In this document: in pieces, positions 1 to 1,160 of the stretch | Layout of the letters: every line of letters begins with the position of its first letter | How positions within the stretch are numbered: the first letter of the stretch is position 1 | Source of the DNA: a virus | Taxonomy: Duplodnaviria > Heunggongvirae > Uroviricota > Caudoviricetes | Virus record (IMG/VR): IMGVR_UViG_3300029241_000103 | Span: 1-4,074 of that record | Reading direction: 5' to 3' (one strand) | DNA: 4,074 nt | Program-made: the position numbers and the translations under genes | The notes under the pieces: model-generated | Told to the model about the DNA's origin: nothing | What the model saw: only the letters and a program-made list of their open reading frames with translations | The model's database searches: none

Positions 1-170
1 TGATGCCTGAAAAAACTGGTGTTTACTGGAATTCTCGGTTTAGCATTGCTCCTATGCTCGATAGGATGTACCGTTTTTGAAAAACAAGTAGTTATACACT
101 TTGTGGGAGCCTATTGGGAACCCGGTGTTTTCATTTCAAGGTGTAATCCATGCGGGGCATCAGAATGAGA

Positions 171-205: not shown

Positions 206-742
206 ATGATGCTTACCCTAGACGAGATAGGTCAATCTGTACGTAACAATATCCAGTTGATTATTGATCATGTCGGCTTACCTCTTGCTGTTGGTCCGCT
301 CAGTGATGATGATTACAAGATTCTGTGTGGTGGCTATGGTGAGCTTGAATGGGACTATGCGTTAAGCACCTATGGCAACTCCAGAGAAAAGTATGAGTTC
401 TGCATAAAACTTGTTCAGCAAGGTCGGGTTCAGGGAATACCATCAGGAGCAGCAATTTGTGTTTATGGGGTTGAAGAAAACATCTTTCGTATCCATATGA
501 TCGAAAGGTTTTCTAGAGAAGATGAATCTCACCCATTGAAAGGGCGCATGGTTTTACTCACTCTTATGAGTGCTTTTATATTTTGTAAAGCTGTTGAATG
601 TAAAGTTGTCCACATTGTAGAGCCAGTACCAGAACTGGTGCAGTATTACGAGTCTTTTGGTTTCCGCATGGAACAGTGCGGTTATGTGATGTCTGCAGTC
701 ATTGATGAGCTGCAGGATATCTTTCTTAAATTTGCTCAGTAG
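206..742 (+). CDS. Hypothetical protein, 178 aa, with a GNAT-like C-terminal motif (possible divergent acyl/acetyltransferase fold)
   Basis: Uninterrupted ORF ending at TAG 740-742. A weak SD (GAGAG, 198-202) precedes tandem ATGs at 206 and 209; the spacing favours 209. The segment PELVQYYESFGF resembles GNAT motif B (A-x-x-x-Y-E-x-x-G-F), and the predicted strand/helix order fits a GNAT fold. The glycine-rich motif A (R/Q-x-x-G-x-G/A) is not clearly present (HPLKGRMVLL). Looks AT-richer than the phage genes by eye. Confidence 0.55.
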   Translation: MMLTLDEIGQSVRNNIQLIIDHVGLPLAVGPLSDDDYKILCGGYGELEWDYALSTYGNSREKYEFCIKLVQQGRVQGIPSGAAICVYGVEENIFRIHMIERFSREDESHPLKGRMVLLTLMSAFIFCKAVECKVVHIVEPVPELVQYYESFGFRMEQCGYVMSAVIDELQDIFLKFAQ

Positions 743-759
743 GTATAGACGAGAAGGGT

Positions 760-772
760 CTACAAATTGTAG
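760..772. promoter_or_regulatory. 13-bp palindrome CTACAAATTGTAG (6-bp arms, 1-nt centre), candidate protein-binding site
   Basis: Read directly: CTACAA (760-765), A, TTGTAG (767-772) is a perfect inverted repeat. It overlaps a 5-bp stem hairpin TAGAC-N7-GTCTA (746-762) just after the stop of the 206..742 ORF. Confidence 0.3.
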
Positions 773-847
773 GATACCCGTCCAGATTACCTTAAAGGTA
801 CATCTATGGCAGTCGTTTTGTGCTTAAACTACTAAGAAACGATGTCA

Positions 848-894
848 CCAATCGACATGATCGATTGGCATAAGTTAGCTAAACAAGCTAGCTT
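848..894 (+). promoter_or_regulatory. Candidate operator and promoter upstream of the small ORF
   Basis: Inverted repeat CCAATCGA-N5-TCGATTGG (848-868) overlaps a -35-like TTGGCA (865-870). After an 18-nt spacer comes a -10-like TAGCTT (889-894). The palindrome AGCTAGCT (886-893) lies in the spacer and -10 region. Confidence 0.3.
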
Positions 895-938
895 TAAAGA
901 GAGGGTTAGAGACGCCTTTACTGTCTCGGGAGTTTTCT

Positions 939-1112
939 ATGAAAGATCAAAAAGCAACCAAGCCACAGGTTAAGTTCGACACAATGAAAGCATTCGCAGG
1001 TATGGGTGCTGCTGTTGAAGTTCTGATGAAGGCTGCTCCTAATGCGTTCACTCACGCTACTGTCTCTGGTAAAGAGCAGCAGGGTAAGCTTCGTCGTCGC
1101 AAAGCAGCATGA
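939..1112 (+). CDS. Small hypothetical protein, 57 aa (MKDQKATKPQVKFDTMKAFAGMGAAVEVLMKAAPNAFTHATVSGKEQQGKLRRRKAA), basic C-terminal tail
   Basis: Not in the supplied ORF track (presumably below its length cutoff); translated by hand. ATG at 939 follows SD GGGAG (928-932) with a 6-nt spacer. Stop is TGA at 1110-1112. Codon choice is typical of well-expressed enterobacterial genes (GGT, GCT, CGT, GTT, CTG, AAA, GAA). An intrinsic terminator follows 23 nt downstream. Confidence 0.5.
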   Translation: MKDQKATKPQVKFDTMKAFAGMGAAVEVLMKAAPNAFTHATVSGKEQQGKLRRRKAA

Positions 1113-1131
1113 TCATAGCTGGTGCTTTTTG

Positions 1132-1160
1132 AAAACCCGCCTTTAGGCGGGTTTTTTCTT
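1132..1160. terminator. Rho-independent (intrinsic) terminator, probably bidirectional, between convergent genes
   Basis: Stem CCCGCC (1136-1141), loop TTTA, stem GGCGGG (1146-1151), then TTTTTT (1152-1157) on the plus strand. AAAA (1132-1135) precedes the stem, so the minus strand reads hairpin then TTTTC. The minus-strand gene's stop (TAA, 1160-1162) sits immediately upstream of the hairpin in that orientation. Confidence 0.8.

What the first reader, a model, noticed from the sequence alone, without database searches (positions are those of the whole stretch)
743..938. Cluster of palindromes in the 196-bp spacer between the two cassette ORFs
The spacer contains a hairpin TAGAC-N7-GTCTA (746-762), a 13-bp palindrome CTACAAATTGTAG (760-772), an 8-bp-arm inverted repeat CCAATCGA-N5-TCGATTGG (848-868) overlapping a -35-like TTGGCA, and AGCTAGCT (886-893) in the putative spacer/-10 region. 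This density suggests operator sites for a dimeric regulator controlling the small ORF, or a structured RNA element. It is more regulatory architecture than a simple bicistronic operon would need.
Basis: seen in the sequence. Interest (0 to 1): 0.45.

Follow-up and report, generated by a model that had tools for sequence, protein, structure and literature searches.

The report
Conserved hairpin-rich RNA leader in phage cassette
The palindromes between the two small phage genes are real and conserved across many enterobacterial prophages, and they most likely fold as hairpins in the messenger RNA ahead of the second gene rather than serving as docking sites for a DNA-binding repressor.

Summary
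All four palindromes are at the stated coordinates. Palindrome density is about five times that of shuffled sequence.

The window is the attP-proximal end of an mEp460-like, dusA-integrating E. coli phage. The spacer lies between a GNAT-fold gene (ORF178) and a 57-codon gene (ORF57). This pair travels as one cassette to different positions in different prophages.

Across 39 distinct homologous spacers, the promoter-like hexamers and three hairpins align (H3 848-868, H4 872-894, H5 909-927). Two further hairpins are seen in per-sequence folds (H2 784-805, Hv 807-847).
- H3-H5 pair in 89-92% of cells, against 47% or less for slid controls, and show compensatory changes.
- Non-Watson-Crick cells are mostly G.U rather than A.C (33 versus 6), which points to + strand RNA.

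Two hexamers are invariant right after the ORF178 stop: TAGACG, then 18 bp, then TAGGAT.

No Rfam family matches. The PrtN-like gene is absent from most loci that keep the hairpins.

Verdict: an undescribed structured leader or intercistronic RNA of a phage moron. Transcription and function are untested. Moderate interest.

The parts
206..742 (+). ORF178, first cassette gene: a GNAT-fold protein of unknown substrate (phrog_4350).
   Evidence: ORF list. PHROG hit E 2e-103 and no Pfam hit. AlphaFold model pLDDT 94. Foldseek finds GNAT acetyltransferases at E about 1e-6, including AtaT and TacT.
746..751 (+). -35-like hexamer TAGACG.
   Evidence: Invariant in 23 of 23 distinct aligned spacers. 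Also present in the Serratia-type cassettes L124 and L138. Matches TTGACA at 4 of 6 positions.
746..772 (.). They lie between and over the promoter-like hexamers.
   Evidence: Present in the window. As palindromes they are only family-specific. The 3' arm is broken in variants L021 and L061, and distant families carry ACGGGATCCCGT instead.
770..775 (+). -10-like hexamer TAGGAT, 18 bp after TAGACG.
   Evidence: TAnGAT is invariant in 23 of 23 spacers, with a spacer of 17-18 bp. Deeper homologues have TAGACG-16-TAGGAT (Serratia), TGcTACGAT (Edwardsiella) and TATAAT (Shewanella) at the same place. It falls below the scan threshold of 9 of 12.
784..805 (+). Hairpin H2: inner stem TTACC/GGTA(A) (788-800) plus outer stem AGAT/ATCT with a bulged C.
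   Evidence: MFE fold. The TTACC-N5-GGTAA arms are conserved. Outer-stem extension beats shuffled flanks only modestly (combined p 0.0045).
807..847 (+). Hairpin Hv. It encloses the variable stretch. Its 3' strand is the conserved (C)GATGTnA motif.
   Evidence: Predicted in the window. Predicted at the same place in 13 of the 19 representative spacers folded, with different sequences pairing to the conserved GATG or GATA motif. No formal covariation count was made.
848..868 (+). Hairpin H3: CCAATCGA-N5-TCGATTGG.
   Evidence: Found by the repeat search. 95.5-95.7% of cells are paired. Two pairs show compensatory changes (C-G to U-A, G-C to A-U). Many U.G and G.U wobbles.
872..894 (+). Hairpin H4: AAGTTAGCT-N5-AGCTAGCTT.
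   Evidence: MFE fold. Four of 8 pairs have changes on both sides, for example GGATAG/CTATCC, GAGTAG/CTACTC and AAGTAGTGG/CCACTACT. 87% of cells are paired.
909..927 (+). Hairpin H5: GAGAC-N9-GTCTC, abutting the ribosome-binding site.
   Evidence: Arms conserved with loops of 7-10 nt. GAGGC/GTCTC wobble variants occur. Hairpins at the same position in distant loci read GAGGC/GCCTC (L125), AGAGC/GCTCT (L122) and TGAG/CTCA (L124, L138).
928..941 (+). Shine-Dalgarno GGGAG (928-932) and the ORF57 start codon (939-941).
   Evidence: Read from the sequence. GGAG or GAGG plus ATG is conserved in every aligned locus. In E. coli, the mosaic junction with PanAT-type prophages lies at about 926.
939..1112 (+). 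ORF57, second cassette gene (phrog_2741): a small basic protein with one predicted helix.
   Evidence: The AlphaFold model is low confidence, with a helix at 15-32 only. It follows every ORF178 homologue whose downstream DNA could be searched (about 120 loci).
1131..1156 (.). Intrinsic terminator closing the cassette. It can serve both strands, between the convergent ORF57 and xis genes.
   Evidence: Terminator scan. An 11-bp perfect inverted repeat. An equivalent terminator follows ORF57 in distant cassettes.

Best explanation
The spacer is a conserved, non-coding, hairpin-rich stretch of + strand RNA. It belongs to a mobile two-gene phage cassette made of a GNAT-fold ORF178 and a small ORF57.

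Proposed mechanism:
1. Transcription enters the spacer from an internal sigma-70-type promoter just after the ORF178 stop codon (TAGACG 746-751, 18 bp, TAGGAT 770-775, start near 782), and/or by read-through from ORF178.
2. The RNA folds into five successive hairpins: H2 784-805, Hv 807-847, H3 848-868, H4 872-894 and H5 909-927.
3. The last hairpin ends one base before the Shine-Dalgarno sequence of ORF57.
4. Acting in cis, the structured leader sets the stability and translation of ORF57 mRNA independently of ORF178. A 5' hairpin would protect against 5'-end-dependent decay, and H5 would frame ribosome access.

Shown here: the palindromes, their conservation, base-pair covariation, strand asymmetry, invariance of the promoter-like hexamers, and linkage to ORF178.

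Inferred, not shown: that the promoter fires, where the transcript starts, and that the hairpins control ORF57 expression.
For: Conservation and linkage:
- Every ORF178 homologue whose downstream DNA could be searched (about 120 fetched loci, 43-100% amino-acid identity) is followed by an ORF57 homologue after 118-197 nt. Two truncated or very distant loci could not be scored.
- The 39 distinct spacers align, with H2-H5 kept.
- Prophages that carry ORF57 behind a PanAT cargo instead have only 39 nt upstream and no hairpins.

Covariation on an alignment not fitted to the structure (A3):
- 88.8% of H3-H5 cells are paired, against 19-45% with partners slid by 1-3 columns.
- 30 cells changed on both sides, against 10.4 +/- 2.8 in shuffles.
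- 0 of 500 shuffles reach the observed covariation score.
- The model-fitted alignment A5 gives the same picture: 91.6% paired, against 47% or less.

Strand evidence:
- G.U-type cells outnumber A.C-type cells 70 to 18 by sequence and 33 to 6 by family (binomial p 1.4e-5). Double-stranded operator symmetry predicts equal numbers.
- The window's + strand folds at -51.8 kcal/mol (z -4.2) and the - strand at -42.9 (z -1.7).
- Over 19 representative spacers the mean z is -2.79 for the + strand and -2.09 for the - strand (Wilcoxon p 0.045). The same modular hairpin order is predicted in most of them.

Promoter evidence:
- TAGACG and TAnGAT are invariant in 23 of 23 spacers, while the 17-18 bp between them varies.
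- Equivalents sit at the same place in Serratia, Edwardsiella and Shewanella cassettes.

Independence from context:
- The same leader family occurs between the late antiterminator and the holin genes in Citrobacter and Atlantibacter prophages.
- The PrtN-like xis is beside the cassette only in the E. coli families.

Non-coding status: the ORF at 842-973 is not conserved in length or stop position.
Against: - No transcription data were found for this locus. Both promoter-like pairs score only 8 of 12 against consensus and were not called by the scan.
- H2, H3 and H5 have sequence-conserved arms. In the aligned set, H5 varies only through G.U wobbles. That pattern also fits protein recognition.
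- Strand asymmetry in folding energy is modest. In some families the - strand folds as well or better (L008, L009).
- Part of the G.U count in H4 comes from a register ambiguity (a bulged base in the L008 and L012 types). My estimate after removing those cells is about 28 to 5.
- The families are related, so neither the shuffle control nor the binomial p is a true probability.
- Below about 65% ORF178 identity the leader keeps hairpins but not this sequence family. The covariance model finds nothing significant in Edwardsiella, Photorhabdus or Shewanella (L133, L135, L137). It finds only E 0.13 in Serratia L138.
Confidence: 0.55

Rival explanations
1. The palindromes are double-stranded DNA operators for a dimeric transcription factor, from the host or the phage. 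This factor would repress the promoter or promoters of ORF57.
For: - H2 (TTACC-N5-GGTAA) and H3 (CCAAT-N11-ATTGG) have sequence-conserved half-sites, fixed spacing and a free centre.
- The palindromes at 746-772 lie inside the conserved TAGACG-18-TAGGAT promoter-like element.
Against: - The G.U to A.C asymmetry is 33 to 6.
- H4 changes sequence while keeping its pairing.
- The H5 loop varies from 7 to 10 nt, which does not fit a fixed dimer.
- None of the four spacer palindromes searched recurs elsewhere in the 44.5-kb phage genome.
- The PrtN-like gene is absent from most loci that keep the palindromes.
- The ORF57 model shows a single helix and no HTH or RHH fold, at low confidence. ORF178 is a GNAT fold.
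Confidence: 0.17
2. The spacer encodes a discrete functional RNA that works with the GNAT-fold protein. It could be an RNA antitoxin, decoy or cofactor, or a trans-acting small RNA. On this view it is not a cis-acting leader of ORF57.
For: - In every locus examined the hairpin region travels with ORF178.
- In E. coli it is lost together with ORF178 when PanAT cargo replaces it. ORF57 stays.
- The architecture has several hairpins and a conserved 5' hairpin.
- H4 is followed by a short U-rich run, CUUUAA.
Against: - No intrinsic terminator lies between 743 and 938, so no defined 3' end is evident before ORF57.
- No Rfam family matches.
- No tandem repeats of the type III antitoxin kind are present.
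- H5 is positioned relative to the ORF57 ribosome-binding site in every aligned locus, which suggests a cis role.
Confidence: 0.13
3. The region works through a short leader peptide. A 9-codon upstream ORF (M-x-P/L-I-x-x-x-D/N-W-stop) spans H3, and its translation would remodel the downstream hairpins, as in translational attenuation.
For: Most non-E. coli families have an ATG, GTG or TTG at the conserved GATG motif and an in-frame TGG-TAA at the 3' arm of H3. I read this from the sequences.
Against: - In the window's own family the stop is lost, giving 43 codons that run into ORF57 out of frame. In the 84-87% family it is 19 codons.
- No Shine-Dalgarno sequence is conserved upstream.
- The start codon lies in the paired 3' strand of Hv.
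- Some families lack a canonical start (L079).
- The apparent peptide conservation follows automatically from conservation of the stem.
Confidence: 0.05
4. The palindromes are incidental: a chance cluster, a repetitive extragenic palindrome, or the scar of a mobile element.
For: Phage intergenic regions are often AT-rich and contain palindromes. The two palindromes at 746-772 are poorly conserved as palindromes.
Against: - The density is far above shuffles.
- There is one copy per genome and one per phage genome.
- The hairpins are conserved with compensatory changes in cassettes whose GNAT protein is down to about 65% identical.
Confidence: 0.03

Closest known systems
Structured 5' leaders and intercistronic hairpins that set segmental mRNA stability and translation in bacterial and phage operons
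   Same: A non-coding stretch between two co-oriented genes. It has several stable hairpins, one at the presumed 5' end and one abutting the ribosome-binding site. Pairing is conserved, and there is no terminator U-run.
   Different: No described family matches (Rfam). No ligand, protein or RNase partner is known. Whether it has its own promoter is only inferred.
Operator palindromes of autoregulated toxin-antitoxin and phage repressor promoters
   Same: Short inverted repeats cluster around promoter-like hexamers. The cassette shows an asymmetry typical of toxin-antitoxin pairs: ORF178 is never found without ORF57, while ORF57 is found without ORF178.
   Different: No DNA-binding fold is detected in either cassette protein. 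The wobble asymmetry and H4 covariation point to RNA. The sites are not repeated elsewhere in the phage.
Leaders of type I toxin mRNAs, such as hok with its fold-back inhibition, tisB and zorO (compared from general knowledge of those systems)
   Same: A long, highly structured 5' untranslated region sits before a small ORF. ORF57 mRNA also has a conserved long-range pairing between codons 3-6 and the 3' untranslated region, with compensatory changes.
   Different: ORF57 is not a hydrophobic membrane peptide. No antisense RNA gene or promoter was identified. The structured leader is absent where ORF57 follows PanAT cargo.
Lambda nut and HK022 put antitermination RNA hairpins (compared from general knowledge)
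   Same: Promoter-proximal RNA hairpins in a lambdoid phage. In many relatives the cassette sits in the late operon, downstream of the Q-type antiterminator.
   Different: There is no sequence or Rfam similarity. There are five hairpins rather than a boxA/boxB pair or a two-stem put element. The region is followed by a strong terminator and, in E. coli, by a convergent gene, so read-through has no obvious purpose.

Membership tests
Any curated RNA family (Rfam 15) | A covariance-model match at or near the family's gathering score | tested here: not met
   In the window spacer the best match is an 18.5-bit hit to Phage_DGR on the - strand, where the gathering score is 50 (E 1.9). Seven divergent homologous loci give no match in their spacers.
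Intrinsic (Rho-independent) terminator | A G+C-rich stem-loop followed directly by a run of U | tested here: not met
   The terminator scan finds nothing in 743-938. The cassette's terminator is at 1131-1156. H4 is followed only by CUUUAA.
Sigma-70 promoter | -35 and -10 hexamers close to consensus with a 16-18 bp spacer | tested here: inconclusive
   TAGACG-18-TAGGAT and TTGGCA-18-TAGCTT each match 8 of 12 positions, below the scan threshold of 9. Their key positions are invariant across families.
Sigma-70 promoter | An experimentally mapped transcription start | not testable with these tools
   No transcription-start or RNA-seq data were found for this locus. The Sakai O157 reference lacks the prophage.
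Operator for a dimeric DNA-binding regulator | A palindrome with sequence-conserved half-sites at fixed spacing, next to a promoter | tested here: inconclusive
   Met for H2 and H3. Not met for H4, whose sequence covaries, or for H5, whose loop is 7-10 nt.
Operator for a dimeric DNA-binding regulator | A cognate regulator that is co-conserved, or the site recurring in a regulon | tested here: not met
   The PrtN-like gene is absent from 11 of 14 leader families. None of the four palindromes searched recurs elsewhere in mEp460. The ORF57 model has no DNA-binding fold, at low confidence. ORF178 is a GNAT fold.
Conserved structured RNA (cis-regulatory leader) | Base pairing kept through compensatory changes, above controls | tested here: met
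   88.8-91.6% of cells paired, against 47% or less when slid. 30-32 double-change cells, against 10-12 in shuffles. 0 of 500 shuffles reach the covariation score. The signal is strongest in H4, moderate in H3 and weak in H5.
Conserved structured RNA (cis-regulatory leader) | Strand-specific signature: G.U tolerated and A.C not | tested here: met
   70 to 18 by cell and 33 to 6 by family. My estimate is about 28 to 5 after removing the register-ambiguous cells. Fold z is -4.2 on the + strand and -1.7 on the - strand.
Conserved structured RNA (cis-regulatory leader) | The region is transcribed, and expression of the downstream gene depends on the structure | not testable with these tools
   Needs RNA mapping and reporter assays.
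Repetitive extragenic palindromes (REP/BIME) or miniature transposable elements | Many dispersed copies per genome | tested here: not met
   A median of one place per genome in 562 E. coli genomes. One copy in the phage genome.
Type III toxin-antitoxin RNA antitoxin | Tandem direct repeats of an RNA unit next to the toxin gene | tested here: not met
   No direct-repeat family lies within the spacer. Only chance-level two-copy repeats of 8-12 nt were found.

The most novel reading that the evidence does not exclude
The hairpin RNA could be a functional third component of a three-part phage-borne module made of a GNAT-fold effector, a structured RNA and a small protein. It might be an RNA that senses, sequesters or is modified by the GNAT protein, or one that times release of an ORF57 antidote. 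That would make the cassette a new kind of toxin-antitoxin-like or anti-phage system carried in moron positions of many enterobacterial prophages.

Observations that are compatible with this reading but do not show it:
- ORF178 never occurs without the RNA and ORF57, while ORF57 occurs alone.
- ORF57 mRNA has a conserved 5'-3' fold-back.
- ORF57 synonymous sites are unusually conserved.
Probability: 0.12. Interest if true: 0.7.

Novelty: new member of a known kind. Interest (0 to 1): 0.4.

Why it matters
The cassette is common. It is found in about 360 of 5426 complete E. coli genomes and in prophages of Citrobacter, Enterobacter, Atlantibacter, Cronobacter, Edwardsiella, Serratia and others. 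Both of its proteins are uncharacterised.

A conserved internal promoter and a roughly 155-nt structured leader would mean the two genes are expressed at independently controlled levels. That is the kind of wiring seen in toxin-antidote and lysogenic-conversion modules.

Defining the RNA gives a concrete handle for finding out what this widespread GNAT and small-protein moron does: mutations with compensatory rescue, and a covariance model for annotation. In itself, a structured leader is an ordinary kind of element.

Tried and rejected
1. sRNA-17 of E. coli K1 RS218 (Sun et al. 2020, PMC7719688). This is a 193-nt small RNA reported in an mEp460-like prophage, inside an intergenic region of about 1.1 kb, so it looked like a possible identity. 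Its sequence, taken from the paper's primer table and alignment, is not in the window even with 3 mismatches allowed. It is a different locus of the prophage.

2. Transcription-start evidence from the O157:H7 Sakai literature. Sakai has an intact dusA and lacks the prophage. A literature search for dusA, prophage and sRNA found nothing relevant.

3. CI/Cro-type operators. No second copy of any of the four palindromes searched exists in the mEp460 genome.

4. att-arm or Xis binding sites. The spacer is more than 600 bp from the attP core. The same leader also occurs in cassettes far from any att site or xis gene.

5. tRNA or tmRNA: none found.

6. A protein-coding reading of 842-973: not conserved.

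7. Occurrence of the H3 motif without ORF178. A scan of viral contigs found only loci that also carry ORF178 and ORF57.

8. RNAalifold on the raw MAFFT alignment of the whole spacer. It recovered only H2, H3 and a 4-bp long-range AGAC/GUCU helix made of invariant columns, which is therefore uninformative. H4 and H5 needed a manually specified structure.

9. Sequence search of ORF178 against solved structures: nothing significant. Only the fold comparison identified it as a GNAT.

Full report
**Where the window comes from**

The 4074-bp window is the attP-proximal end of an mEp460-like lambdoid phage of E. coli that integrates into dusA. It is 97.8% identical to phage mEp460 over bases 1-1200. 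It is up to 100% identical to prophages in several hundred complete E. coli genomes.

The window carries the phage (attP) version of the dusA 5' fragment, not the host-phage junction.

The gene order is:
- the dusA fragment and att core;
- ORF178 (206-742, + strand);
- the 196-bp spacer (743-938);
- ORF57 (939-1112, + strand);
- a terminator (1131-1156);
- a convergent PrtN-like excisionase, followed by early genes on the - strand.

**Checking the observation**

- TACCTTAAAGGTA at 788-800;
- GAGAC-N9-GTCTC at 909-927;
- a longer hairpin at 807-847.

The spacer has 11 perfect inverted repeats (arms of at least 5, loops of at most 8). Dinucleotide-preserving shuffles give 2.0 +/- 1.7, and 0.05% of them reach 11. 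Only 1.5% of equal-sized windows elsewhere in the sequence reach that number.

**What the spacer belongs to**

Within E. coli the cassette is nearly invariant (at least 98.7% identity). About 200 other genomes keep only bases 926-1160, which is the ORF57 ribosome-binding site, gene and terminator. In those genomes a Panacea-domain toxin-antitoxin cargo lies upstream, with only 39 nt before ORF57 and no hairpins. So bases 743-925 travel with ORF178.

I fetched about 120 loci with ORF178 homologues, at 43-100% amino-acid identity. Every one whose downstream DNA could be searched has an ORF57 homologue 118-197 nt downstream.

The pair sits in different places in different prophages:
- next to attP and xis in the E. 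coli families;
- between the late antiterminator and the holin or lysis genes in Citrobacter, Atlantibacter, Edwardsiella and Serratia;
- among tail genes in Photorhabdus;
- beside a methylase in Shewanella.

It is therefore a mobile two-gene moron, and the spacer is an internal part of it. ORF178 is a confidently modelled GNAT fold (pLDDT 94). ORF57 is a small basic protein with one predicted helix and a low-confidence model.

**Conservation of the palindromes**

The 39 distinct spacers align. The alignments together with the per-sequence folds give this block structure:
- an invariant TAGACG (746-751);
- 17-18 variable bases;
- an invariant TAnGAT (770-775);
- hairpin H2 (TTACC-N5-GGTAA, 788-800, with an outer stem 784-805);
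- a variable stretch that folds back onto a conserved (C)GATGTnA motif (Hv, 807-847);
- H3 (848-868);
- H4 (872-894);
- H5 (909-927);
- the Shine-Dalgarno sequence and the ATG.

They are not kept as palindromes. The 3' arm is broken in close variants, and distant families have a different palindrome, ACGGGATCCCGT.

**RNA or DNA?**

On a MAFFT alignment of 25 distinct sequences, not fitted to any structure, I specified H3, H4 and H5.
- 88.8% of cells form standard pairs, against 19-45% when partners are slid by 1-3 columns.
- 30 cells carry changes on both sides, against 10.4 +/- 2.8 in shuffles.
- No shuffle out of 500 reaches the covariation score.

A covariance model built from this alignment re-aligned 35 matches and gave the same picture.

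The three helices differ in how much they vary:
- H4 carries most of the covariation, for example AAGTTAGC/GCTAGCTT, GGATAG/CTATCC, GAGTAG/CTACTC and AAGTAGTGG/CCACTACT.
- H3 has two compensatory pairs.
- H5 varies only by wobble within this set. In more distant loci the hairpin at the same position reads GAGGC/GCCTC, AGAGC/GCTCT or TGAG/CTCA.

The non-Watson-Crick cells are overwhelmingly G.T rather than A.C: 70 to 18 by sequence and 33 to 6 by family. A double-stranded protein site gives no reason for that asymmetry. A + strand RNA does, because G.U pairs and A.C does not. Some of the G.U cells in H4 come from a bulge-register ambiguity. My estimate after removing them is about 28 to 5.

Folding energies agree. 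The window's + strand folds at -51.8 kcal/mol (z -4.2) and the - strand at -42.9 (z -1.7). Over 19 representative spacers the mean z is -2.79 against -2.09 (p 0.045). The same order of hairpins is predicted in most of them.

The asymmetry is modest and is reversed in two families, so it is supporting evidence rather than decisive evidence. The outer stem of H2 is only weakly better than shuffled flanks.

**Promoters**

The consensus scan calls no promoter in the spacer. Two 8-of-12 candidates are nevertheless conserved at their key positions.

The first is TAGACG-18-TAGGAT, directly after the ORF178 stop.
- It is invariant in 23 of 23 spacers, while the bases in between vary.
- Serratia has TAGACG-16-TAGGAT at the same place. 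Edwardsiella has TGcTACGAT and Shewanella has TATAAT.
- This is the pattern expected of a real promoter. It would put H2 at the 5' end of a leader of about 155 nt.

TTGGnA and TAnnnT are invariant. It may be a second start site. An RNA starting there would not contain H3 or H4, so it cannot explain their RNA-type covariation.

**Operator hypothesis**

H2 and H3 do look operator-like, with conserved half-sites, fixed spacing and a free centre. Four results count against the operator reading:
- None of the four spacer palindromes searched recurs elsewhere in the 44.5-kb mEp460 genome, and the covariance model finds a single copy.
It is absent within 2.5-3 kb in the other eleven families that keep the hairpins.
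- Neither cassette protein shows a DNA-binding fold.
- A scan of viral contigs for the H3 motif found it only in loci that also have ORF178 and ORF57.

**Comparison with known elements**

- No Rfam family matches the window spacer or seven divergent homologues.
- The spacer is not a terminator.
- It is not a repetitive extragenic element, since there is one copy per genome.
- It is not a tRNA or tmRNA.
- It is not coding. The ORF at 842-973 is not conserved.
- It is not the published sRNA-17 of mEp460-like prophages, whose sequence is absent from the window.

It works like the structured leaders and intercistronic hairpins that uncouple the expression of neighbouring genes. I file it as an undescribed member of that general kind.

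**Side observations that bear on the model**

- ORF57 mRNA has a conserved 10-nt pairing between codons 3-6 (947-956) and the 3' untranslated region (1123-1132). L079 and L011 have compensatory changes, and L124 and L138 have a compensated variant.
- Among conserved amino acids, ORF57 codons are 69-96% identical to the window's. ORF178 codons in the same loci are 33-63% identical.
- ORF178 is never found without ORF57, while ORF57 is found without ORF178.

Together these suggest that ORF57 expression is tightly controlled at the RNA level. They also suggest the pair may behave like an effector and its antidote. This is inference only.

**Verdict**

The most likely mechanism is a + strand hairpin-rich leader, probably with its own promoter, that controls ORF57 in cis (confidence 0.55). 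Operators (0.17) and a separate functional RNA (0.13) remain possible. Transcript mapping and compensatory-mutation reporters would settle it.

Noticed in passing
window 947-956 with 1123-1132: There is a perfect 10-nt long-range complementarity between ORF57 codons 3-6 (UCAAAAAGCA) and the 3' untranslated region 11 nt after the stop (UGCUUUUUGA), just 5' of the terminator. The same 10-nt pair is the best match in 13 of the 14 leader families tested and in one of two PanAT-type loci. L079 and L011 carry compensatory changes (UCAGAAAGCA/UGCUUUCUGA), and L124 and L138 carry a compensated variant (GCAAAAAGU/ACUUUUUGU). It resembles the fold-back inhibition of hok mRNA and would cover the ribosome landing zone.
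   Followed up: partly
window 939-1112 versus 206-742, and homologous loci: Among conserved amino acids, ORF57 codons are 69-96% identical to the window's, while ORF178 codons in the same loci are 33-63% identical. Either ORF57 has extra nucleotide-level constraint, such as RNA structure or an antisense function, or it is exchanged more recently as a separate module.
   Followed up: partly
window 206-1156, and loci L003-L006, L133-L145: ORF178, the spacer and ORF57 form a mobile moron found at different prophage positions (attP/xis, the Q-holin gap, the tail region). ORF178 never occurs without ORF57. ORF57 occurs without ORF178 in about 200 E. coli genomes, behind a PanAT toxin-antitoxin cargo and sometimes a CoiA-like gene. 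This asymmetry is what an effector-antidote pair would show.
   Followed up: partly
window 842-868 (ATG 842), and the H3 region of homologous loci: In most non-E. coli families a 9-codon upstream ORF (M-x-P/L-I-x-x-x-D/N-W-stop) spans hairpin H3 exactly. Some families use a GTG or TTG start one codon upstream. In the window's family the stop is lost, giving a 43-codon ORF at 842-973.
   Followed up: partly
window 1-75: The dusA 5' fragment in the window is the phage (attP) version, not the host-derived attL version seen in integrated prophages. The window therefore comes from a phage or excised circular form. The core is the inverted repeat CCTAT-GCTCG-ATAGG, and the host-phage junction in lysogens falls within ATGCTCGA.
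   Followed up: yes
window 235-206, - strand: A promoter-like site, TTGACC-18-CATCAT, lies on the - strand inside the 5' end of ORF178 and points towards attP. In the phage genome the integrase gene lies beyond attP. It is a candidate int promoter.
   Followed up: no
TTGGnA and TAnnnT are invariant across 25 aligned spacers even though they overlap H3 and H4. It could be a nested promoter giving a leader of about 38 nt that contains only H5.
   Followed up: partly
window 899-927: In the window's own family the MFE fold pairs GTCTC (923-927) with an upstream GAGA (899-902) in a longer irregular stem, instead of with GAGAC (909-913). Two competing 5' arms exist only in this family.
   Followed up: no
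L009 921-1005: A tRNA gene lies about 2 kb upstream of the cassette in one Escherichia sp. locus. That prophage may use a tRNA attachment site rather than dusA.
   Followed up: no
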